The notes beneath the pieces were generated by a model. That model was not told the origin of the DNA. It was given only the letters and a program-made list of their open reading frames with translations, and made no database searches. Shown here in pieces: positions 1,691 through 12,043 of a stretch of 64,000 nt of DNA (positions within the stretch are counted from its first letter, which is position 1; every line of letters begins with the position of its first letter). A program made the translations under genes and the position numbers. Source of the DNA: Escherichia phage EscoHU1; the sequence record NC_133119.1, one strand, 5' to 3'.

Positions 1691-3355
1691 TTATGCAAAG
1701 AATTTACCGTTTTTGAAATCAATCAAAGTACGTTGCCCGTTTGCATAGGTAATTAAATGCGTTTGCGTCCAGCTTGACGCGCCCACGTTGTAACCCATAT
1801 CAAGCGACCCCGCCACGCCAGCGGTATAAACGCCGCCGTAAATGCTAGCCGTATGAGTATGACCAGTGTTAAGGCGTCCAAGTTTCTTAAACTGCTTAGG
1901 ATTGCCCCGACTGCCGTTAATGCCATTGTGACCATGTACGCCGCACTCAATGCCAGCGATTTTAAATGACTGGTCAGTAGTCAGGAAAATAGCGTTAAAT
2001 TCGCAACCTGCAACGTTTCTAAGCGCGTAATCTAGCACGTTAAAGGTATCATCCTTTTCAGCAATAGCGGCGTAAATCGCAGCGTTTAGACGGTGATACA
2101 ATTCCGCGTTTGCGGGATCGTCTTTAATGTTAGCGTTACGATCATCAAGCCAGCGTGAAAGAGCTAAATCATGGTTAGATTCCACAATGATTGTTTGAGA
2201 GAAATCACGCTCCATTGATTCTAATACGCGTCCAGTATCGATAAGATCATCAATAACTTTATCACGTCCTGCGGCGTACTGTTTAGCAAGGAATACACCA
2301 CTAGCGCGGTTGTGATGGTTGCGCGATGTAAAATCATGCACATCATGAATAAACTGATATTTAGGCTTGAGAATATCAAGCAAGCTGTTTTCACTAGCCC
2401 ATGATGCAACGGCGCAATCATCATCTAATTTTTCGGCGTGAATATCGCCATATTGCAAGCCTAGAACATGATCGGACGTTTTATAACATCCGGTAGGAGT
2501 AGCGCAAACATTCAAATCATAGAACATTCCGCTTTCATCCATTGTTTCAAGCTGGCGAACGAAAAATTCTCCGTCGTCGTCGAACTCCACCAGCAAAGCG
2601 CCGAAATTATGCAGAGCCTCAGCTTTTTGACCTGCTTTCTGCTGAATGTAGTTTTTAAGCGTAGCCGTTCCGGTTGAATACATACGGCGCACTACTTCAC
2701 CTTTTAACGCTGGCACACTTTCAGCGGTGATTTTAGCGTGACCTATTGCCAGCCCTTCAATATTTAAAGCCGTGGCGGTTTCTGCGAATCCTGAAAGCGG
2801 ATAATCTGCCGTTGGTAAAACGTTAATTTCAGCCATGAAAGCAAAGCGGCGGTTATTCAGGAAAACATTTTTATCGCAGATATATTTATCAAATGCGGGA
2901 TCGTATTTGATTCCTTCTGCACCTTCCCCGTTCTGGAATCCATTTTTATTATAAATGAATTTACTAATCAGCAATTCAGCACCGATATATTCAGCAAATT
3001 TTTCCAGACTTGCTAAAAAGTTTTTATGCGGGAAAGTATTATTTTGAATCGACGTTAGAATAAAACGGCGACCGGATTTAACTTCCCATTGTTCAACGGT
3101 ACTAGAAACAATTCCCGCCGCTTCGGGGCGATCATCATTTTTAATCGCCTTTTCAGCTTTTGCCGCTTTCGGTTTCGCTGGCTTGTTTGCTTCCAGCCAA
3201 TCACAAATCGCGGTTGAATGTTTCGGCGTATCATAAACAGCTTTTGAAATATCGTCGCAAACTTCCAATTTAGTAGCGCGTAAACGCTTACCGTAGAAAT
3301 TAAAATCAGCGGCCATTTTCAAAATTTGAGCTTGTTTTTCTGCGGAAATATTCAT
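1691..3355 (-). CDS. A1: A1-like pre-early protein (calcineurin-like metallophosphoesterase motifs)
   Basis: 554 aa ORF; GDIHAE and ESNHDL motifs; size and position match T5 A1. Confidence 0.7.
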   Translation of the reverse strand: MNISAEKQAQILKMAADFNFYGKRLRATKLEVCDDISKAVYDTPKHSTAICDWLEANKPAKPKAAKAEKAIKNDDRPEAAGIVSSTVEQWEVKSGRRFILTSIQNNTFPHKNFLASLEKFAEYIGAELLISKFIYNKNGFQNGEGAEGIKYDPAFDKYICDKNVFLNNRRFAFMAEINVLPTADYPLSGFAETATALNIEGLAIGHAKITAESVPALKGEVVRRMYSTGTATLKNYIQQKAGQKAEALHNFGALLVEFDDDGEFFVRQLETMDESGMFYDLNVCATPTGCYKTSDHVLGLQYGDIHAEKLDDDCAVASWASENSLLDILKPKYQFIHDVHDFTSRNHHNRASGVFLAKQYAAGRDKVIDDLIDTGRVLESMERDFSQTIIVESNHDLALSRWLDDRNANIKDDPANAELYHRLNAAIYAAIAEKDDTFNVLDYALRNVAGCEFNAIFLTTDQSFKIAGIECGVHGHNGINGSRGNPKQFKKLGRLNTGHTHTASIYGGVYTAGVAGSLDMGYNVGASSWTQTHLITYANGQRTLIDFKNGKFFA

Positions 3356-3749: not shown

Positions 3750-4166
3750 TTATTCACCTGCGGCCTGTTTCACTTCCTCCGCTACGCCTAACAATTGCGC
3801 CACGGCTTCCAGCGTTTCCAGTTTTGCACTTTCCAGACTTGCCAGATCATCAGCGTCTTTAATAACGCCAGCATCAATGGCATGTTTAGCCATAACGCGC
3901 ACATAGTGAGCTTTACGGACACTAGACCCGCCGCCAACTTTACGCGGTTTATCGCTTTTCTGGTACGCTTTTGCGCTTGTCAGTTTAGAACGTACAGACA
4001 CCGGACTAGCAGCGCCAACGGCGGCGGCAATTTCTTTTAAGCCGTCACTATTCGCAAACTCAATCCCGCTTTTAGCGACCATTTCAGAATACATAGAAAC
4101 AGCCTTTTCGGTGTTTTCTTCGTTCCAAGAAAATTTTGCGGTTTTTTCGGTTTTAACGTTAGACAT
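3750..4166 (-). CDS. A2: A2-like pre-early protein
   Basis: 138 aa basic/acidic ORF directly downstream of A1; size matches T5 A2. Confidence 0.55.
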   Translation of the reverse strand: MSNVKTEKTAKFSWNEENTEKAVSMYSEMVAKSGIEFANSDGLKEIAAAVGAASPVSVRSKLTSAKAYQKSDKPRKVGGGSSVRKAHYVRVMAKHAIDAGVIKDADDLASLESAKLETLEAVAQLLGVAEEVKQAAGE

Positions 4167-4682: not shown

Positions 4683-4901
4683 TCAAGCGTTTTTTAAACT
4701 TTTTTCGATTTGATGTGAGTTATATAAATCAATCATTATATTACGCCACACCATTTCCAGCCCTTGTTGCTTGCCTTTCTTGTATTGCTTGAATCTGTAT
4801 TTTACAGATCGTTGCGCTACTGTCAACAAATTTTTTGTTCTGCTATCCAGTGGGCTAGCAGGTTTCGCACTAATCACTAAAGCGTTTTTTGATTTGATCA
4901 T
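4683..4901 (-). CDS. hypothetical basic protein
   Basis: 72 aa ORF. Confidence 0.3.
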   Translation of the reverse strand: MIKSKNALVISAKPASPLDSRTKNLLTVAQRSVKYRFKQYKKGKQQGLEMVWRNIMIDLYNSHQIEKSLKNA

Positions 4902-5287
4902 TATCGTCGATTCCTTATATTATATAAGTTTACCGCCGATAGGCTTTAAGATATTCCCTAATTTTTAAAGAGCATGGCGGTAAACTTCCCCGCCGTTGTA
5001 GTCTGGCCTTTCGTTTCCGTCTTGCCGTCCTACGAGATAAATAATAGGTTATTCCCGAAAATGGCGCAAGCATATTTTTGTAAAGAAACGTAAAGAAAAC
5101 CACTACTCGCAAACGTCCAGCGGCGCACTAAATTTAATGAAACGGGCGCGCGAATAACACCAAAACAACCATTTTAGCAAGTAATTTTTTCATTTATATT
5201 TGCTTTGCCCTACTTGACAAAATCTAAAATCCTCGTGGTGAGGTTTTCTCGGTGTACCCCTTATGATTGCCTATCTTTTCCTTTGAG

Positions 5288-5319
5288 GCGCTTAGAATCG
5301 CTTACAGAGCGTTTTAGAC
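5288..5319. repeat. 32-bp repeat copy 1 (GCGCTTAGAATCGCTTACAGAGCGTTTTAGAC)
   Basis: Near-identical copy at 9065-9096. Confidence 0.6.
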
Positions 5320-5647
5320 CCTGTTAATAACTTATACAAAAAGCAAAAATGAAATTTAATGAATTATCCACTTGATTTTTCAAAAAAGTATTTTCTGCTG
5401 TTATTTTTCATTGACAAATAAGTTTAGGCGTGTATCAGACCCTTAGCAGACTAACAATCGCTAGGATGATAATCACGCTGGTGGATTGTAACAGCCGAAA
5501 CAGTTAGCAGACTATTAATACTCTAAAAACCTATTAGCCAACTAACTATTTCATATTATATAATATACTTATAAATTAAAGAGAAATAATAACTATAAGA
5601 AACTATCGGCTAAGTGAGAACCACTATCATTTAGGTTATTCACAAAG

Positions 5648-5656
5648 TTATCCACA
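5648..5656 (+). promoter_or_regulatory. DnaA box TTATCCACA
   Basis: Perfect 9-mer consensus. Confidence 0.5.
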
Positions 5657-5696
5657 GCACAAAATAACTTGACGCAATAGGCGACGTTTTGGCGAC

Positions 5697-5705
5697 TTAT
5701 CCACA
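5697..5705 (+). promoter_or_regulatory. DnaA box TTATCCACA
   Basis: Perfect 9-mer consensus, 49 bp from the first. Confidence 0.5.
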
Positions 5706-5725
5706 GACTTATGTACAGGTTATCC

Positions 5726-5745
5726 TACTGTATAAATATACAGGG
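5726..5745. promoter_or_regulatory. LexA-box-like palindrome (CTGT-N8-ACAG core)
   Basis: TACTGTATAAATATACAGGG; core CTGTATAAATATACAG fits the SOS box. Confidence 0.45.
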
Positions 5746-5992
5746 TAGAATGGTAGCAGTAACAACCGCAATCAAATTTAAGCGGCCTAAAACGCGTTCT
5801 AAGCGGTTTTTCAGCATTACCCCTTATTATAATAAAGCCTTGTGTACGCTTACAGAGAGCTAGAAATAGAAAACGCGCGGTTAGCACAAAAATAGGCAGT
5901 AGGCAAGGAATAAAAAACCTTTTCTTTTTTCTTGCCCCTAGCGAACAAATATCTATATCATTCACTCACCGATTAACGAGGGAGACAAAGAA

Positions 5993-6994
5993 ATGTCTAC
6001 TGTAAGAATTGCAGTACCAACAAACGCAACTATTATTAAAGGTAGTTTGCGCAACCTGCTAGATGGTAGTAGTGCGGCAAGTATTCAGCACACCGCCGCA
6101 ATGGTTGAAAAAATTCACGAGGATATTTTAGATAATAATGATACTCATTATTCAGTCGATGATTTCACGCTATTACTAGACCAGACAAGGGCGCTAGTAA
6201 TTTTCAACCGTGATTATCACATTTTCCGTAATAGTCGTGGAACTGATATTGATTTTATCATTGTTGGTTATAGTGAGTCTCATAATGGTTACATTGCGCG
6301 ATTATATAACGTGCAAGAAAAAGAGCAGGTAACAGCAACAAAAGTAAATAGTATCAGGCTTGATAGTGTCGGGTCGTTATTAAATAGTATCTGGCGCGAA
6401 TTATCGTCAAGCTATAAAGGCGCGGATAGTGACGCAATCGAAACAACTGGCGTATTGTGTTTTGAACGCGCTAGCGGTAACATGTTGATTCCTGACGATT
6501 ATTTAGGGTACGGGAATGAATCAAACGTTGCAAACGCTGGATTTACATTAAAACCGCTTGACAACGTAGCAAAACAGGCTGTAGAATCTCAAACTTCAAG
6601 CGCAAATGCGCAAACTACTGAAAATAAAGGAAATATTATGTCTAAAGTATCTTCTATCGTTGCTGCTAATAAATCCGCCGTTGTAAACGCTGCTAAATTG
6701 GAAGCGGGTAAAATTGCACTGACTCAAATCACAAAAGTAGCGGCGAAAAAAGCGCCGTTTATGATTAAAGGGTATATTGATACGCCGATTGGTCGCGTAG
6801 TGATCGCTAACCTGCTGAGTGTAGCGGTTGACCAGTACGCCCCGACTAATGCGAAAGCGAAAGCGGTAGCAGGCGCGGCAATGGAAGCGGCAATGTTGGA
6901 AATGGTACAGAGTTTCAATATTGCGGAAATGATCGATGAAATGGTAAAAGGTATTGACATTTCTACTTTTACCAATAACACCGAAAGCGAGTAA
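5993..6994 (+). CDS. hypothetical protein (plus-strand gene in terminal-repeat region)
   Basis: 333 aa ORF; GAGGGAGA RBS 8 nt upstream of ATG. Confidence 0.55.
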   Translation: MSTVRIAVPTNATIIKGSLRNLLDGSSAASIQHTAAMVEKIHEDILDNNDTHYSVDDFTLLLDQTRALVIFNRDYHIFRNSRGTDIDFIIVGYSESHNGYIARLYNVQEKEQVTATKVNSIRLDSVGSLLNSIWRELSSSYKGADSDAIETTGVLCFERASGNMLIPDDYLGYGNESNVANAGFTLKPLDNVAKQAVESQTSSANAQTTENKGNIMSKVSSIVAANKSAVVNAAKLEAGKIALTQITKVAAKKAPFMIKGYIDTPIGRVVIANLLSVAVDQYAPTNAKAKAVAGAAMEAAMLEMVQSFNIAEMIDEMVKGIDISTFTNNTESE

Positions 6995-7002
6995 TAATAA
7001 CT

Positions 7003-7023
7003 AGCGGGGATTATTTCCCCGCT
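7003..7023 (+). terminator. rho-independent terminator
   Basis: AGCGGGGA-TTATT-TCCCCGCT hairpin then TTTACTATTT. Confidence 0.55.
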
Positions 7024-7059
7024 TTACTATTTCCCTGCTAATTAATAGGAGACTAATTA

Positions 7060-7554
7060 ATGTCAGAAGAAAAATATGGCTTTTCGCTAGAAAGTGTGAA
7101 TGAAGCTAAACACGATATGATCGTTTTAGTTGATTGTCATACTGGTTATTGCGGGGAGGGCTGGACGGAAGAACATTTTGTTCCCGCTGGCTGTGATCTG
7201 GATGCTTTCGCAAACGAACACGCATATGATAATGCTTCTCGTTTCGGTAGCGATGGGGAAGAAGATGAAGAAACAGGGGAATGGATTGAAAATGATAATG
7301 TATATGCGAGTCTTTATCATTATCAATTGAGTAAGTCCGGTACTTATGTAAATGGCGGCGATCCTATTAATATCGTTATGAAACTAATTATTAAACACGG
7401 TGGCGCGGAAATAATTGGTAACAAGGCGTTATTATACGCAAACCGATTAAAACAGCTTGTTTATATTCCTGATAATTCCCGTTGGGATGAATATGCCGTT
7501 TTACAGAAAGAATTAAAACGCTGTTTCGGCGTGGAAGCATTAGAAATAGTCTAA
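7060..7554 (+). CDS. hypothetical acidic protein
   Basis: 164 aa ORF. Confidence 0.5.
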   Translation: MSEEKYGFSLESVNEAKHDMIVLVDCHTGYCGEGWTEEHFVPAGCDLDAFANEHAYDNASRFGSDGEEDEETGEWIENDNVYASLYHYQLSKSGTYVNGGDPINIVMKLIIKHGGAEIIGNKALLYANRLKQLVYIPDNSRWDEYAVLQKELKRCFGVEALEIV

Positions 7555-7663
7555 TGTAAAGTTTTGTAAAGGTCGCTTTAATCGGCGGCCTTTTTTGTTA
7601 TAATGCCTTTACACCGAAACGGTGGATTGAAAATTTTCCCAAAATTTTTTGGAGGCGTTAAAA

Positions 7664-7894
7664 ATGGTTGCTTTCTCTTCTTCTGACTCTCTTTTCACTG
7701 GTAAAGGTTGGGTATCTAATCGCTGGATCATTGATCAAATGGTTTCGGAATTTGGGATAGGTAAAACTTATGTTACTATTCAGGCGCTTTATGATAATGA
7801 TCAGATTGACCAGCAAACCGCCGGATTTTTGCTGGACACGTTGAAATCAGAACATTGCACCAAAAAGCAAGCGGCAAAAATCGTTTTAATGTAA
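7664..7894 (+). CDS. hypothetical protein
   Basis: ATG preceded by GGAGG; start trimmed from track ORF 7649. Confidence 0.45.
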   Translation: MVAFSSSDSLFTGKGWVSNRWIIDQMVSEFGIGKTYVTIQALYDNDQIDQQTAGFLLDTLKSEHCTKKQAAKIVLM

Positions 7895-7947
7895 TTAATA
7901 ACGGGGCGTTACTTTCGCCCCTCATTCCCTAACTAGGAGTTAAGCAA

Positions 7948-8160
7948 ATGTTAAAGAATGTTTCCCTTGCCCGTTCTAAAGGTTTTAAGCTGGTGGATGT
8001 TAACACGTTCGAGCGTCCAGATTGTAAAATCGAATATGTAGCACGCAACAAAAACGCTTTCCGTGTTACAGAAAAGAAATTTGACAAGCGCGGAAATTTG
8101 GTAGCCGAAACGGTTAAACACTTTGCCACCTTTTACGCTGCGTTTCGTGGGGTGTTATGA
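7948..8160 (+). CDS. hypothetical protein
   Basis: 70 aa ORF with AGGAG RBS. Confidence 0.45.
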   Translation: MLKNVSLARSKGFKLVDVNTFERPDCKIEYVARNKNAFRVTEKKFDKRGNLVAETVKHFATFYAAFRGVL

Positions 8161-8269
8161 GATCCTTATATATTGCTCTAGCGTTTGCTACCGTTGGCGT
8201 TGTATGTTCCGTCGCCGCATTTGTTTTAAAAATGTACCTGATATTTTCCCAGCTTTAGGAGCTTGACAA

Positions 8270-8617
8270 ATGGTTATTTACGAGGGCAATCGTTTTGTTG
8301 CTAATTGCCGTCCGGCATTATTAGCAAACTATTTAAATCAGCTTTCACCAGTTTATAAAGGTGTGGTTAATATCTATGAAGGCAAAGCACATTATAAAAT
8401 TTCTGCCGTTGTCGCTCGCGAGCTTGCCTTTCAGTTTCTTACTTTTAACTCATGCGATATTCAGGTTATGGGTGAGTCATTAGTAGCAGAAAATGAAAAT
8501 GAATTTATTGACATTTTCCGCAAAGTATGTACCGAGCGCCTGATTATGAAAGGCGCATATATTCAATCAACCGCTGATAGTATTGAAACAGCGTTTCGAA
8601 AAATTGCATATGAATAG
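8270..8617 (+). CDS. hypothetical protein
   Basis: 115 aa ORF with AGGAG RBS. Confidence 0.5.
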   Translation: MVIYEGNRFVANCRPALLANYLNQLSPVYKGVVNIYEGKAHYKISAVVARELAFQFLTFNSCDIQVMGESLVAENENEFIDIFRKVCTERLIMKGAYIQSTADSIETAFRKIAYE

Positions 8618-8740
8618 CTGGTGGCGTAAAACGCAAAGTCACAAATCTAATAATACCGCTGGGAAACATTCCCAGCGTTTACGATTTGGTAATGGCTTCA
8701 CAATGATATTGATAATCATTCTCATTCTAGGAGCAATGGC

Positions 8741-8980
8741 ATGGCTGTAAGAATTTTACGATATGTAGAACGTAAAGAAACCGATATTATGCAGCATCAT
8801 TTAACTGATGCGCAATATGCGCAATTTTTAGAAATGCAGAAAAGCGGAGCTAGTACGGCGGCGCTAGGGGCGTGGATCAATTCAGTTTCAATATGTACGC
8901 ATTTTGATTCATACGGATATACGCCAGCCGAAACCGTCCAGATCTTTGACGACTACGAGAAGGAATACATAGCAGACTAA
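8741..8980 (+). CDS. hypothetical protein
   Basis: 79 aa ORF with AGGAG RBS. Confidence 0.45.
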   Translation: MAVRILRYVERKETDIMQHHLTDAQYAQFLEMQKSGASTAALGAWINSVSICTHFDSYGYTPAETVQIFDDYEKEYIAD

Positions 8981-8986
8981 TAATAA

Positions 8987-9008
8987 CGGGGCGCAACTAC
9001 CGGCCCCG
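8987..9008 (+). terminator. rho-independent terminator
   Basis: CGGGGC-loop-GCCCCG hairpin then CCTTTTCT. Confidence 0.55.
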
Positions 9009-9064
9009 CCTTTTCTGGCCTTCCTCAAATTTCCCCTTGTAAAATACCTCCTCCAAAAATAAAC

Positions 9065-9096
9065 GCGTTAGAATGCGTTACAGAGCGTTTTAGAGC
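9065..9096. repeat. 32-bp repeat copy 2
   Basis: Matches 5288-5319. Confidence 0.6.
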
Positions 9097-9124
9097 TATA
9101 TTAGAGCTATTCACTACACAGGAA

Positions 9125-9144
9125 TACTGTATAAATATACAGTA
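9125..9144. promoter_or_regulatory. LexA-box-like palindrome TACTGTATAAATATACAGTA
   Basis: 20-mer one base from E. coli SOS-box consensus TACTGTATATATATACAGTA. Confidence 0.5.
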
Positions 9145-9152
9145 GAATAACC

Positions 9153-9173
9153 TGTTGATAAGTCTGTTGATAA
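9153..9173 (-). promoter_or_regulatory. tandem DnaA-box-like 9-mers (TTATCAACA x2)
   Basis: TGTTGATAAGTCTGTTGATAA on plus strand; one mismatch to consensus each. Confidence 0.4.
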
Positions 9174-9264
9174 CGCCTCAAAATCGCTAGGATTTTGTCA
9201 GGTCAAATCGTGCTGTTAATAAACCTGTGAATAAATTAAATAACAGTGTTTCTCACTTCACTTT

Positions 9265-9415
9265 GTAAATGCGAGTCATTCTCGTTATCATTCGCGTTTC
9301 CCTTCCTAAATGCAAATCATTCTCATTCGTATTCCGGTAGTCAAATGATAACCATTCTCATTCGCATTCAACTTCTCAAATGCGAATCAATCTCATTATC
9401 ATTCGCATTTTGGCA
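9265..9415. repeat. about 4 direct repeats (~38 bp unit, AAATGCGAATCATTCTCATT...CATTCGC)
   Basis: Units start near 9269, 9310, 9343, 9381; each has internal TGCGAAT/ATTCGCA inverted repeat. Confidence 0.6.
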
Positions 9416-9447
9416 GGCAGGGCATTTTCATTTTGCCCTGCGCTTTT

Positions 9448-10049
9448 GTGCAAATCCGACATTTGCCCCCACGGATTACGTGCCAGCGTGCATGTGCGAA
9501 TCCGACAATTTTTGGTAGTGTGCAAATCCGATGGCAAATATTTTTTATATGTGCGAATCCGACAATGAATTTTCCTAAAAACTCCAGCAATCACGAGTGC
9601 GGCTCGATTCCTGTGGAATTAGCTAGAATATGCGCAGAACCGACAAGCGTTAAGGTGTGCGAATCCGACAAGATTTTTGTGACTTCGATGAGAGGGTGTG
9701 TAATTGTGTGAGTTTGTGGGAGAGTTGATGCAGCGAGAGAAAATTAGAGGAGAAACTGGAGGGTGCAGCTGTGGTGGCGTGAAACGCCTGGTTTGCTGCG
9801 TTTTTGGGGATAATGTGGGATGTTTTGGGATAATTGGGCATGGAGCGAGATAAAGTGAAATTTTATTAGCAAAATGGGGCAAAATCGCTTGACAAGTGAA
9901 AATTCCTGTGGCTCTAAAAACTCAGGCAAACATGGGCCTTCGGCCCGAAATAATGCTGCTATTTTCAGTGTTCATAAAAACTTTGGAGACTCCTATCAAT
10001 GTGCAAATCCGACCATAAATTTCTAGAAACACAGTGTGCAAATCCGACA
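9448..10049. repeat. iteron array: 14-mer GTGCRAATCCGACA in at least 8 copies (presumed first-step-transfer / injection-stop region)
   Basis: Copies at 9448, 9494, 9519, 9551, 9633 (variant), 9657, 10001, 10036; irregular spacing. Confidence 0.65.
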
Positions 10050-10445
10050 GTAATTTCCAGACTGACAAGAGTCAATTATTTTTCCTAGAAATAACCGCCC
10101 TCCCTATAACCGCCCTGTATTAAACCGCCTATTGCTGGAGTTTCTAGGAACATGAAAACCGCCTGAGTTGGCGAGAGAAACAGATTTAAAGTTTAGTGTA
10201 AACTCTAGAGTTAGTGCTCAACTATTCCTAGAAACTTAGGAGTCTAGAGGAAAGTATTGTGCCATCCTAGCAGATGAGCGGCAACCGGTGTATCATCTTG
10301 AACACAAATATTGCCTTTAAATATTATAAGGTAAGTAAAAGTTAATATACCCCCATTTCATGAGAGTTAGCCCCTCTAGGCGCGTGCGATTTAGTACTAT
10401 CATTTTGGTTCTCGTGAGAAAGAACATATTCTAGAACCACTCCTG
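10021..10445. repeat. dispersed TTCTAGAAA-like palindromic motifs
   Basis: Copies near 10021, 10085, 10143, 10235, 10431. Confidence 0.35.
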
Positions 10446-10596
10446 ACGTCGGAACCTATCAATGTTTTTCTTTGAGAAATGCTATTATAATCTACGGCCT
10501 AGAGGTAAAAACAAGTTGATGTTTTTAATCTATGAGATTATTATAACACATTATTCTCACGAATGTCAAGCATATTTCGTTACTTTTAAATTTTTG

Positions 10597-11325
10597 TCAT
10601 GAGTTTGGAGTTGGGTAAATTTTTATGCAACCTTGACTTAATAGATATTCTTCTGCCTCCACAGCCTTAACGTTGAATATCTCTTTTGCTCCATCGAATT
10701 TATAATGGTTAGCAAATTTGTTCTCGAAGAATTTATGTGCTTGATGCTCTAGTTTATAAGCAAGTTCTTTCGATCCTTTCTTATATTGATAGATACCAAA
10801 TACTTCCATATCTTCGAAACCAGGCACACGCAGTTTATCATACTCTAGATTCTTAAACCTTTGATGTGGCTCTCTAGAAACTCCAATCTTTGTCTTTAAT
10901 TTCTTCCTAGACTGATCTTTATTAGAGAAAATATAGAGATATGTAGGAAACTGAACATCCTCTTCTATTTCAGGTTTCTCTATAGGTGTGTTGAGGTTGC
11001 TTTCTCTAGCACATTGTAAACAGCCGTGCCCCTCTAAGTGGGATCTAGCAGTTTGCATAAAATAACCTTTATGCTTGTAACACCATATCTCTACTAGTTG
11101 GGTGGCTGTTTTATACTTAACTCTTTCGTACCCATATTCTTCTTTCTGGACTTTCAAAGCTTTCTTAATAAAGATAAGGTTTAATGCTTCTTGCTGGAAG
11201 TCTGGGTGAAGTTGTCTAATCTTTGTTATATTGGTAGAACCATTTGACTTCAAAAAGTTTTTAAGAGGAAACTTCCTGGCTTCCTCTCGTAGCTTTTCAT
11301 TTATCTCACTGCGTAAATCATCCAT
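10597..11325 (-). CDS. GIY-YIG-like (T5orf172-type) domain protein with N-terminal Cys/His motif
   Basis: 242 aa ORF; PTYLYIFSNKD...KIGVS resembles GIY-YIG/T5orf172 core; HLEGHGCLQCA. Confidence 0.45.
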   Translation of the reverse strand: MDDLRSEINEKLREEARKFPLKNFLKSNGSTNITKIRQLHPDFQQEALNLIFIKKALKVQKEEYGYERVKYKTATQLVEIWCYKHKGYFMQTARSHLEGHGCLQCARESNLNTPIEKPEIEEDVQFPTYLYIFSNKDQSRKKLKTKIGVSREPHQRFKNLEYDKLRVPGFEDMEVFGIYQYKKGSKELAYKLEHQAHKFFENKFANHYKFDGAKEIFNVKAVEAEEYLLSQGCIKIYPTPNS

Positions 11326-12043
11326 CTTTATTAACCTTTAGAATAACTCCTTTTGATGTCATGAAAAGGAATGTCGCTAAATAAGACGCTTCAGAGTTAA
11401 GGGAGGAATAATCCACATTTCCCCTAGGTCTAGTATCTTGTTCAGAGTCAAGAATTGTTGATACATCAAACTTAACAGACTTCGCAATTATTAGGGCTTG
11501 ATCTTGATCACGTAAGATCTCATAATGAGCTGCTAGCAGTGTTGGAGTAGCCTCAACATTGCTATCGATTATACTTAAGTGTAATTGTGCAAGTGTAGAT
11601 ACTATTCCTAGCTTTAGCTCAGACAATGATGAATATGGAGCTGCTGTGAACTTTTGAAGTCTAGGAAGATGGTCATACTCACATTTCTTCGGTGGGATCA
11701 TTAAGATGTTAGGATAACATTCTAATGCTGTCTTTGCTGATCCTTCCTTAAAACGTGGGAGTTCTATATCTGCAAATACATGATATGAATTAGCCGAGAA
11801 TCCTTTAATAGTTGGATCTACTGTTTGGATTAGGCGACGTAAACTTATGTAAGAAGCTGCTAAGGTAACTTCTTCGCAATCTTTATTATACTTAGGCTGT
11901 CCACTGGCGTCTAAGTATGCTGGATAAAATTCTGAACAAAATGCTACTGCATGGGCTTCTAATTCATTAAGTTCAGAGACACGTTTGCCGTTACAGCCCT
12001 TTGCGAGGCTGATAATTTCTGCTAAGTTCTTTTTAATACTCAT
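11318..12043 (-). CDS. hypothetical protein
   Basis: 241 aa ORF, 8-nt overlap with downstream gene. Confidence 0.5.
   Translation of the reverse strand: MSIKKNLAEIISLAKGCNGKRVSELNELEAHAVAFCSEFYPAYLDASGQPKYNKDCEEVTLAASYISLRRLIQTVDPTIKGFSANSYHVFADIELPRFKEGSAKTALECYPNILMIPPKKCEYDHLPRLQKFTAAPYSSLSELKLGIVSTLAQLHLSIIDSNVEATPTLLAAHYEILRDQDQALIIAKSVKFDVSTILDSEQDTRPRGNVDYSSLNSEASYLATFLFMTSKGVILKVNKDG

What the first reader, a model, noticed from the sequence alone, without database searches (positions are those of the whole stretch)
9125..9144. Near-consensus LexA box between the last plus-strand pre-early gene and the iteron array
TACTGTATAAATATACAGTA has both half-sites intact. No obvious gene lies immediately downstream, so it may act as a protein-binding landmark rather than a simple operator.
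Basis: seen in the sequence. Interest (0 to 1): 0.45.

Follow-up and report, generated by a model that had tools for sequence, protein, structure and literature searches.

The report
Conserved LexA box in T5 injection-stop region
The flagged 20-bp palindrome is a real, near-perfect binding site for the host SOS repressor LexA; it equals phage T5's unexplained "palindrome D", sits next to DnaA boxes at the end of the first-injected DNA, and is kept across the whole T5 family, so a host repressor may take part in T5's still unexplained two-step DNA injection.

Summary
TACTGTATAAATATACAGTA lies at 9125-9144, one base from the ideal LexA operator TACTG(TA)5CAGTA.

- A twin (TACTGTATAAATATACAGgg) lies at 5726-5745.
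- The two boxes are the inner ends of a 132-nt inverted repeat (5612-5743 / 9127-9258). This repeat brackets the accessory plus-strand pre-early genes, and each arm carries two pairs of DnaA boxes.
- The right box is identical to T5's annotated "palindrome D" in IRD', inside the proposed injection-stop region.
- All 10 Demerecviridae lineages sampled (Escherichia/Salmonella, Klebsiella, Erwinia, Pectobacterium, Proteus, Aeromonas and Vibrio phages) carry a LexA-type box in the right-hand region. An alignment of eight of them has invariant runs only at the LexA half-sites and a phased DnaA box.

No validated promoter overlaps either box; P11 lies about 190 nt away. A published viable T5 deletion, mapped here from its primers, removes the left copy, so that copy is dispensable.

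Best reading: a selected high-affinity LexA site acting as an architectural landmark with DnaA at the first-step-transfer boundary, not a classical operator. LexA binding and any role in injection are untested. I found no paper linking T5 and LexA.

The parts
9125..9144 (.). Right LexA-type box TACTGTATAAATATACAGTA, 19/20 to the ideal consensus. Identical to T5 'palindrome D' (AY587007 9330-9349) at the inner end of inverted repeat D'.
   Evidence: CTGTA/TA/CAGT are invariant across 8 subfamily representatives.
5726..5745 (.). Left LexA-type box TACTGTATAAATATACAGGG, at the inner end of T5 inverted repeat D. First 18 nt identical to the right box.
   Evidence: D12; 24.1 bits. It decays to ACAA in some relatives. 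A viable T5 deletion removes it.
5612..5743 (+). Left arm of the 132-nt inverted repeat (T5 IRC-spacer-IRD, Repeat Region 2).
   Evidence: I1, 74% complementary; Davison 2020, bioRxiv 10.1101/866236.
9127..9258 (-). Right arm of the inverted repeat (T5 IRD'-spacer-IRC', start of Repeat Region 3, the proposed injection-stop region).
   Evidence: I1.
9153..9173 (-). First pair of DnaA-type boxes, TGTTGATAA at 9153-9161 and 9165-9173, with a 3-nt gap. The first starts 9 nt after the LexA box.
   Evidence: TGT.GATAAC (9165-9174) is invariant across subfamilies at fixed spacing from the LexA box..
9214..9234 (-). Second pair of DnaA-type boxes, TGTTAATAA (9214-9222) and TGTGAATAA (9226-9234).
5636..5656 (+). 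DnaA boxes of the left arm, outer pair: TTATTCACA (5636-5644) and TTATCCACA (5648-5656).
5697..5717 (+). DnaA boxes of the left arm, inner pair: TTATCCACA (5697-5705) and TTATGTACA (5709-5717). The LexA box starts 9 nt after the second.
9085..9093 (+). GCGTTTTAG motif on the inner side of the right box. The mirrored CTAAAACGC lies at 5787-5795 on the inner side of the left box. The motif is kept in Vibrio, Proteus and Pectobacterium phages. Binding partner unknown.
   Evidence: (D7, I15).
5932..5961 (+). Promoter-like TTGCCC-18-TATCAT, taken by position and sequence similarity as the equivalent of T5 promoter P11 for the plus-strand cassette. It starts 187 nt downstream of the left LexA box, so it is not under it.
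   Evidence: T5 comparison.
8988..9014 (+). Terminator-like hairpin plus T-run ending the plus-strand pre-early cassette, 110 nt upstream of the right LexA box.
   Evidence: T5 annotates a terminator (palindrome C) at the matching place.

Best explanation
The 20-mer is a genuine high-affinity site for the host SOS repressor LexA, kept by selection. It is one of two copies that form the inner ends of the T5-type inverted repeat IRD/IRD'. In this window, as in T5 and its close relatives, each copy lies 9 nt from a phased pair of DnaA boxes.

Proposed mechanism. [quoted passage not shown] Resident LexA dimers, and DnaA on the neighbouring boxes, then load onto these sites. They build a fixed host nucleoprotein landmark on the last few hundred base pairs of first-step-transfer DNA, just inside the point where transfer pauses. 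This complex marks or stabilises the pause boundary, or insulates it from transcription and nucleases, until the phage A1/A2 proteins restart transfer. It does not switch a gene on or off.

Shown here:
- motif quality;
- the twin copy and the inverted-repeat architecture;
- adjacency to DnaA boxes;
- family-wide conservation confined to the LexA-critical and DnaA-critical bases;
- absence of a validated promoter at the site.

Inferred:
- that LexA is the protein that binds (my estimate about 0.9 in vitro);
- that LexA binding is the selected property (about 0.8);
- that the role concerns the injection-stop boundary (about 0.35-0.4).
For: 1. Motif quality. The site matches the ideal operator at 19/20 positions, scores 28.5 bits and has a heterology index of about 1.1, better than every recalled chromosomal SOS box. 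The same 18-mer is used directly upstream of umuD-like genes (MGFPSPA...) and other genes in about 110 unrelated IMG/VR contigs, mostly of prophage size. That is the classic operator position.

2. Conservation in close relatives. In 37 IMG/VR loci found through the A2 gene, not through the motif, 36 have the homologous regions. A strict CTGT-N8-ACAG is present at the right site in 33. The two right-site variants that miss the strict pattern read ATCCAG, a half-site used by many genuine E. coli SOS boxes.

3. Conservation across the family. T5, Klebsiella GZ8, Erwinia KEY, Proteus Stubb, Vibrio phi3/KIT04/Chester, Pectobacterium My1 and Aeromonas AhSzq-1 share as little as about 30-35% A1 identity with the window or with one another. 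All carry a box of 19 bits or more in the right-hand region (after the cassette, before the repeat end) and a LexA-type box in the left one, which is degraded below that score in the Vibrio, Aeromonas and My1 phages. There are 1-3 such hits per 15-20 kb locus, against 0-0.03 in shuffles. In the 8-way alignment the invariant runs are CTGTA, TA and CAGT of the box and TGT.GATAAC of a DnaA box at fixed spacing; the flanks have diverged.

4. Substitutions are not compensatory (A to G at one arm only, A to C at one arm only). The hairpin is weak (-7.2 kcal/mol, z = -2.4). This points to protein recognition rather than DNA secondary structure.

5. Position. The right box equals T5 palindrome D (9330-9349), about 290 bp left of the calculated shear point at 9618 and inside the region proposed as the injection stop signal. 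By established T5 biology the stop works without phage protein synthesis, so it must rely on pre-existing host or virion factors. LexA and DnaA qualify.

6. Not an operator. Neither box overlaps the P11-type promoter that matches validated T5 P11, which starts 187 nt downstream of the left box. No gene follows the right box. A near-ideal site is the kind that stays occupied longest during SOS (established LexA biology). That fits a permanent landmark better than a sensitive switch.
Against: - No binding or genetic data exist. T5 is not known to need lexA, recA or dnaA (my knowledge, unverified), so any role is probably modulatory.
- The left copy is dispensable. The T5 hegG-017 deletion, which I map to AY587007 5389-9081, removes all of Repeat Region 2 and the phage is viable with small plaques. 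So bracketing by two boxes is not essential.
- A cytoplasmic protein bound to DNA that has already entered does not obviously stop further entry against capsid pressure.
- The central TATAWWTATA is more conserved than LexA alone requires. This hints at an extra constraint, such as a -10-like element, bendability or a second protein.
- All hosts of the family share the same LexA motif, so the host-motif co-variation test could not be done.
- My weight matrix was built from recalled sequences.
Confidence: 0.42

Rival explanations
1. Classical operator of weak inward-facing promoters. The centre of the LexA box (TATAAA / TATATT) serves as a -10 element. The adjacent DnaA-type box (TTATCC / TTATCA) serves as a -35 element 16 nt upstream. 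LexA and DnaA would then repress a rightward transcript from the left arm and a leftward transcript, antisense to the pre-early cassette, from the right arm. Host DNA breakdown by A1 would trigger RecA and LexA cleavage and release these transcripts, for example to help shut off pre-early genes.
For: The promoter scan lists TTATCA-16-TATATT on the minus strand at 9161-9134 (9/12). The mirrored TTATGT (TTATCC in most relatives)-16-TATAAA lies on the plus strand at the left box, by my reading. The geometry is kept in the Klebsiella and Erwinia phages. The cassette encodes toxic, DNA-damaging proteins: an 011-like DUF7566 protein and a gp015-like nickase. In Vibrio, Aeromonas and My1 relatives, inward-facing sigma-54-type promoters lie next to the modules, so transcription may start nearby.
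Against: The -35 matches only 2-4 of 6 positions. A -10-like TATAWW is built into any good LexA box. Spacing changes to 15 nt in Vibrio phages and the arrangement is absent in the Aeromonas phage. The only validated promoters in this half of T5 are P11, PH22 and PD/E20, none at the boxes. No TSS is reported there.
Confidence: 0.2
2. The palindrome is the target of a phage protein, and the match to LexA is secondary or incidental. Candidates are the dimeric DNA-binding protein A2 with A1, which restart transfer, or a packaging or nicking factor.
For: A1 and A2 act in cis-proximal processes at this region. The putative recognition helix of A2 (S.SVRxKL) is conserved between the window and the Proteus and Vibrio phages despite 33-40% overall identity. 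A conserved A2 site is therefore plausible somewhere here.
Against: A conserved palindrome matching 19/20 of the LexA ideal by accident is very improbable. The positions that never vary are the LexA-critical ones, and the variants seen are LexA-tolerated. The A2 model is all-alpha with a Myb/homeodomain-like N-terminus. It has no significant PDB match, and LexA (3jsp) appears only at rank 49 with E = 7. So A2 is not a LexA-type winged helix. The co-conserved neighbour is another host-protein site, the DnaA box.
Confidence: 0.1
3. LexA sink or SOS sensor. The boxes number four per genome including the right terminal repeat, and hundreds per cell after replication. They would titrate LexA or report LexA loss, coupling the infection programme to the host's SOS state rather than organising DNA entry.
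For: The near-ideal affinity suits competition for a limited LexA pool. Mobile elements commonly exploit LexA (established for CTX-phi, GIL01 and coliphage 186).
Against: The host chromosome is destroyed within minutes, so derepressing host SOS genes has little target. Nothing in cis is obviously regulated. The fixed phasing with DnaA boxes is unexplained by a sink.
Confidence: 0.1
4. A structural or recombinational DNA element with no protein partner. It could be a cruciform or hairpin, or simply homology that lets the accessory cassette be exchanged or inverted between phages.
For: It lies at the inner ends of a long inverted repeat around a highly variable cassette, whose orientation is reversed in Sugarlandvirus and My1. 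The central AA/TT dinucleotide flips between relatives without AT or TA intermediates, as expected from gene conversion or palindrome inversion.
Against: The hairpin is weak and AT-rich. Substitutions are not compensatory. Recombination homology does not explain why only the LexA and DnaA consensus bases survive between subfamilies.
Confidence: 0.07

Closest known systems
T5 'palindrome D' / inverted repeat D' of Repeat Region 3, the proposed injection stop signal (annotation of AY587007; Davison 2020, bioRxiv 10.1101/866236)
   Same: It is the same element. The 20-mer is identical to T5 9330-9349. It has the same position after the last pre-early gene. It has the same 131/132-nt inverted-repeat partner upstream of gene 011, and the same paired DnaA boxes with 3-nt gaps.
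   Different: In T5 it is described only as a palindrome. The papers I could read speak of repeats, palindromes and DnaA boxes and never of LexA or SOS (0 occurrences). I also find LexA-type boxes on the left side of 'Type 4' (Stubb) and Vibrio phages, which are said to lack IRC/IRD.
Canonical gammaproteobacterial SOS operators (LexA boxes of recA, umuDC, sulA, colicin genes; prophage umuD-like genes)
   Same: CTGT-N8-ACAG with a (TA)n-type centre. The identical 18-mer serves as an operator directly upstream of umuD-like genes in many prophage-sized contigs.
   Different: Here the box does not overlap a validated promoter and no gene follows it. It is closer to the ideal than any chromosomal operator I recall. 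It is coupled at fixed spacing to DnaA boxes and sits in a strictly virulent phage.
LexA use by other mobile elements (CTX-phi PrstA, Bacillus phage GIL01 P1 with gp7, coliphage 186 tum; PMC4551915 for GIL01)
   Same: A phage keeps a host LexA site in its own DNA.
   Different: Those are temperate or carrier-state elements in which LexA gates a lysis-lysogeny promoter. Here the phage is virulent and the site lies in a non-coding DNA-entry control region.
DnaA-box clusters (oriC, datA) and Davison's DnaA-membrane anchoring model for the T5 injection stop
   Same: There are phased clusters of DnaA boxes next to the LexA box. Host proteins present before infection are proposed to act on entering DNA.
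   Different: That model does not include LexA. LexA is not membrane-bound, so it would add a second, different host partner. Neither has been tested.

Membership tests
Gammaproteobacterial LexA operator (SOS box) | 16-bp core CTGT-N8-ACAG, palindromic 20-mer close to TACTG(TA)5CAGTA | tested here: met
   19/20 to the consensus, both half-sites intact. Left copy 18/20.
Gammaproteobacterial LexA operator (SOS box) | Predicted affinity within the range of proven operators (heterology index below about 12.6; weight-matrix score in the operator range) | tested here: met
   Heterology index about 1.1 and 28.5 bits. Training operators range over 13.5-27.1 bits. The matrix was built from recalled sequences, so values are approximate.
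Gammaproteobacterial LexA operator (SOS box) | Overlaps or abuts a promoter so that LexA represses a downstream gene | tested here: not met
   The promoter that matches validated T5 P11 starts 187 nt from the left box. Only a 9/12 promoter-like match overlaps the right box, and no gene follows it.
Gammaproteobacterial LexA operator (SOS box) | Demonstrated LexA binding (EMSA, footprint or ChIP) and SOS-dependent regulation | not testable with these tools
   No experimental data found.
T5-type IRD/IRD' element of the FST non-coding repeat regions | Inverted repeat of about 131 nt, one arm upstream of gene 011 and one after the last pre-early gene | tested here: met
   Arms 5612-5743 and 9127-9258, 74% complementary. 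They match T5 6022-6152 and 9332-9462.
T5-type IRD/IRD' element of the FST non-coding repeat regions | Two pairs of DnaA/DnaA* boxes per arm, the boxes of a pair 3 nt apart | tested here: met
   9153-9161/9165-9173 and 9214-9222/9226-9234; 5636-5644/5648-5656 and 5697-5705/5709-5717.
T5-type IRD/IRD' element of the FST non-coding repeat regions | Sequence identity with T5 palindrome D | tested here: met
   T5 9330-9349 reads TACTGTATAAATATACAGTA, 20/20 identical.
T5 injection stop signal (functional iss) | Cis-acting requirement for the pause between first- and second-step transfer | not testable with these tools
   The literature states that the function of these sites has not been tested. 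Only the left arm is known to be dispensable.

The most novel reading that the evidence does not exclude
Host LexA, together with DnaA, is a physical component of the T5 injection stop signal. LexA bound to palindrome D on the just-entered DNA would help set or hold the pause after 8% of the genome. Restart by A1/A2 would involve displacing or bypassing this host complex. If so, the SOS repressor would be a host factor for genome entry of a whole family of virulent phages, a use of LexA unrelated to transcription.
Probability: 0.15. Interest if true: 0.9.

Novelty: new variant of a known kind. Interest (0 to 1): 0.62.

Why it matters
What halts T5 DNA after the first 8%, and how A1/A2 restart it, has been open since the 1960s. 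The cis region is described only as a maze of repeats, palindromes and DnaA boxes, and its function has not been tested.

Recognising the most conserved palindrome of that region as a near-ideal LexA operator has two consequences.
- It names a second concrete host protein to test. Its site is kept from coliphages to Vibrio and Aeromonas phages and is phased with a DnaA box.
- It makes the question directly testable with tools that exist: purified LexA, lexA(Def) and lexA(Ind-) hosts, and the recent T5 genome-engineering methods.

It would also be an unusual case of a strictly virulent phage maintaining a LexA site outside any promoter.

If LexA binding proves irrelevant, the result still gives the T5 family a sharp, family-wide sequence landmark for the end of the first-step-transfer DNA.

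Tried and rejected
- Host-motif switching test. I looked for T5-like phages on hosts with a different LexA motif. A1 homologues in alphaproteobacterial phages (PhiJL001) sit in a replication module of an unrelated phage type, not in an FST architecture. All Demerecviridae hosts sampled are Gammaproteobacteria with the same motif. The test is not possible.
- Known RNA. Rfam at permissive threshold over 4900-10700 gave only a sub-threshold sRNA hit elsewhere.
- DNA hairpin or cruciform. The structure is weak (-7.2 kcal/mol, z = -2.4) and there are no compensatory changes.
- A2 as a LexA mimic. The AlphaFold model (pLDDT 83.5) is all-alpha and has no significant PDB match.
- Classical operator of the cassette promoter. 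Rejected because the P11-type promoter lies about 190 nt away.
- Literature. Searches for T5/Tequintavirus with LexA or SOS box found nothing relevant. The single co-occurrence, in a Shewanella phage paper, is only a reference-list entry. Davison's 2015 review and the 1987 and 2005 primary papers are not held, so an older mention cannot be ruled out.
- Supplement of Klimuk 2020 searched for the P11 sequence: not given.

Full report
WHAT THE WINDOW IS
The window is the left end of a T5-like phage (Demerecviridae). The genes dmp (111-845), A1 (1691-3355) and A2 (3750-4166) lie on the minus strand. A divergent non-coding region follows at 5113-5992. Next comes a plus-strand accessory pre-early cassette at 5993-8980, which encodes:
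- a DUF7566 protein like T5 gene 011;
- a gp015-like, Ung-dependent nickase;
- several small ORFs.

A long non-coding repeat region follows the cassette. The region 8700-10200 matches 522 phage records, and several annotate it as left terminal repeat.

THE OBSERVATION
TACTGTATAAATATACAGTA is at 9125-9144. It is palindromic apart from the central AA. It differs from TACTG(TA)5CAGTA at one base.

I built a weight matrix from E. coli SOS boxes that I recalled from the literature, so its values are approximate. On that matrix:
- this site scores 28.5 bits;
- the ideal consensus scores 30.2 bits;
- the best training operator scores 27.1 bits;
- the heterology index of the site is about 1.1.

Shuffles give 0.02 matches to the 20-mer at up to 3 mismatches, against 3 observed. 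They give no hit of 19 bits or more in 15 kb.

1. A twin, TACTGTATAAATATACAGGG (24.1 bits), lies at 5726-5745. These are the only two sites above 14 bits in 64 kb.
2. The two boxes are the inner ends of a 132-nt inverted repeat, 5612-5743 and 9127-9258, 74% complementary (I1). It brackets the plus-strand cassette.
3. Each arm has two pairs of DnaA-type boxes with 3-nt gaps. The nearest box lies 9 nt from the LexA box.
4. This is the IRC-spacer-IRD / IRD'-spacer-IRC' structure of T5 (6022-6152 and 9332-9462). Davison proposed it as part of the injection stop signal because of its eight DnaA boxes.
5. GenBank AY587007 annotates T5 9330-9349 as 'palindrome D'. Its sequence is identical to the window's 20-mer.

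Davison's text has no occurrence of LexA or SOS. Neither do three recent papers that describe the region.

CONSERVATION IN CLOSE RELATIVES
I fetched relatives through the A2 protein, so the sample is not biased by the motif.
- Of 37 IMG/VR loci, 36 contain both homologous regions.
- A strict CTGT-N8-ACAG is present at the right site in 33.
- The two right-site variants that miss the strict pattern read ATCCAG, a half-site common in real SOS boxes. Other variants are single, non-compensated changes.
- The left copy sometimes decays to ACAA.
- The central dinucleotide is AA or TT, never AT or TA. The palindrome is effectively inverted between relatives. I read this as gene conversion between the arms or palindrome inversion.

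CONSERVATION ACROSS THE FAMILY
The decisive comparison is across subfamilies, where the flanks have diverged. I sampled:
- T5;
- Klebsiella GZ8 (Sugarlandvirus);
- Erwinia KEY;
- Proteus Stubb (Novosibvirus);
- Vibrio phi3, KIT04 and Chester (Ermolyevavirinae);
- Pectobacterium My1 (Mccorquodalevirinae);
- Aeromonas AhSzq-1 (Shenzhenvirus).

A1 identity to the window falls to about 33% in the Vibrio phages. All carry LexA-type boxes in the same two non-coding regions. Every right-hand region has a box of 19 bits or more. The left-hand boxes are degraded in one half-site, or score lower, in the Vibrio, Aeromonas and My1 phages.

In an alignment of eight right-hand modules:
- the invariant runs are CTGTA, TA and CAGT of the box (window 9127-9131, 9136-9137, 9140-9143);
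- the other invariant run is TGT.GATAAC of a DnaA box (9165-9174), at constant spacing from the LexA box;
- mean column identity is only 64%.

So the bases that survive are the consensus bases of two host proteins whose specificity is shared by all these hosts.

The same 18-mer is an ordinary SOS operator elsewhere. About 110 unrelated IMG/VR contigs, mostly 30-50 kb, carry it directly upstream of umuD-like and other genes. Apart from three other contigs with a DnaA-type box within 60 nt of the motif, only the T5-like contigs place it next to DnaA boxes.

IS IT AN OPERATOR?
T5 has three experimentally characterised pre-early promoters, PH22, PD/E20 and P11.
- The window's promoter that matches T5's P11 region (TTGCCC-18-TATCAT, 5932-5961) starts 187 nt downstream of the left box.
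- The right box follows a terminator-like hairpin (8988-9014), and no gene follows it.
- One weak reading remains. TTATCA-16-TATATT lies on the minus strand at 9161-9134 (9/12), with a mirrored TTATGT (TTATCC in most relatives)-16-TATAAA at the left box.
- That reading is weak for three reasons. The -35 is poor. The -10 is built into any good LexA box. The spacing is not kept in Vibrio or Aeromonas phages.

I keep this as the main rival, not the preferred reading.

GENETICS FROM THE LITERATURE
Annor et al. (bioRxiv 10.64898/2026.04.02.716235) made a viable T5 lacking hegG to 017, with small plaques. Their junction primers map to AY587007 5360-5388 and 9082-9107. The deletion therefore spans 5389-9081. 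It removes all of Repeat Region 2, including the left LexA box, and keeps palindrome D.

So the left copy, and the bracketing by two boxes, are dispensable in the laboratory. This fits the decay of the left box in some lineages. The right copy has never been tested.

OTHER CANDIDATES
- DNA structure. The hairpin is weak and the changes are not compensatory.
- Known RNA. None was found.
- Phage protein A2. An AlphaFold model from 25 homologues (pLDDT 83.5) is all-alpha with a Myb/homeodomain-like N-terminal domain. It has no significant PDB match, and LexA appears at rank 49 with E = 7. A2 is therefore not a LexA-like winged helix.
- A2 cannot be fully dismissed. Its putative recognition helix is conserved across the family. 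It may bind another conserved motif here, for example GCGTTTTAG, which flanks both boxes.

MECHANISM
Shown:
- an operator-grade LexA motif, in two copies;
- fixed phasing with DnaA boxes;
- selection acting on the LexA-critical bases across the family;
- a location about 290 bp inside T5's calculated shear point;
- no validated promoter at the site.

Inferred:
- LexA dimers already present in the cell, and DnaA, load on the entering DNA.
- They form a fixed nucleoprotein landmark at the end of the first-step-transfer DNA.
- The landmark marks, stabilises or insulates the pause boundary until A1/A2 act.

A near-ideal site is the type that stays occupied longest during SOS, which suits a permanent landmark.

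Weak points:
- Nothing is known to make T5 depend on lexA, recA or dnaA.
- A cytoplasmic protein on DNA that has already entered does not obviously stop further entry.
- The centre of the box is more conserved than LexA alone needs.

My estimates are:
- about 0.9 that LexA binds in vitro;
- about 0.8 that LexA binding is what selection maintains;
- about 0.35-0.4 that the role concerns the injection-stop boundary.

COMPARISON AND NOVELTY
As a DNA element it is already catalogued, as T5 palindrome D / IRD'. As a motif it meets the sequence criteria of a LexA operator but fails the promoter-overlap criterion. What appears new is the identification of palindrome D as a LexA site and its family-wide coupling to a DnaA box. 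I could not read Heusterspreute 1987, Wang 2005 or Davison 2015, so an earlier mention cannot be excluded. I rate it a new variant of a known kind: a LexA site in a virulent phage, outside a promoter, in a DNA-entry control region.

Noticed in passing
window 8705-8723; related units in 9268-9410: GATATTGATAATCATTCTC matches the E. coli Fur-box consensus at 17/19 positions. It sits just upstream of the RBS of the last plus-strand ORF (8741-8980). Similar units (AATGATAACCATTCTCATTCGCATT) recur in the repeats right of the LexA/DnaA module. There are 5 matches with up to 3 mismatches in 64 kb, against 0.05 expected. T5's receptor FhuA is Fur-regulated, so the region may collect sites for several host regulators.
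   Followed up: partly
L042 (Vibrio phi3), L043 (KIT04), L044 (Chester), L046 (My1), L047 (Aeromonas AhSzq-1); coordinates: Near-perfect sigma-54 promoter motifs (TGGCAC-N5-TTGC[AT]) lie next to the LexA/DnaA modules of Vibrio, Aeromonas and Pectobacterium T5-like phages, mostly facing inward. None occurs in the window, T5, or the Klebsiella, Erwinia and Proteus phages. There the homologous spacer reads CAGCACGATTTGAC.
   Followed up: partly
window 9134-9135 and 5735-5736; L001-L037: The central dinucleotide of the box is AA in some relatives and TT in others, at either copy, with no AT or TA intermediates. The palindrome is effectively inverted relative to its flanks. This suggests gene conversion between the inverted-repeat arms or palindrome inversion.
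   Followed up: partly
window 5787-5795, 9085-9093, 5309-5317: The motif CTAAAACGC / GCGTTTTAG flanks both LexA boxes on their inner side. It is conserved next to LexA-type boxes in Vibrio, Proteus and Pectobacterium phages, in some cases directly abutting a box whose outer half-site is degraded (CATG). Its binding partner is unknown; A2 is a candidate.
   Followed up: partly
window 9447-10052; L042 (window orientation 7520-7800): The iteron TGTGCRAATCCGACA (six or more copies) near the end of the terminal repeat has a counterpart array, GGTGCAAAACCGATAT, at the same place in Vibrio phage phi3. The iteron array is therefore also ancient in the family.
   Followed up: no
L039 (Klebsiella GZ8) 5734-9190; L046 (My1) 7854-11805: In Sugarlandvirus and My1, most genes between the two LexA boxes run in the same direction as A1/A2, the opposite of T5 and the window. 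This is consistent with replacement or inversion of the cassette between the inverted-repeat arms.
   Followed up: no
L041 (Proteus Stubb), window-orientation 9743-9762: A third LexA-type box, CACTGATTATTTATACAGTG (19.5 bits), lies inside an annotated coding sequence of the Stubb pre-early cassette.
   Followed up: no
window 3750-4166 (-): The A2 protein model (pLDDT 83.5) is all-helical: an N-terminal three-helix Myb/homeodomain-like unit, a disordered, Gly-rich basic linker, and a C-terminal helical domain. It has no significant match in the PDB. My Pfam copy gave no hit, although the protein database lists PF26822 for its homologues.
   Followed up: partly
and one search hit lists: Several T5-like records and proteins carry implausible host labels (Campylobacter phage A148, Listeria phage fragments, 'Brucella melitensis', 'Enterococcus faecalis'). 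These are probably contamination or mislabelling in public data.
   Followed up: no
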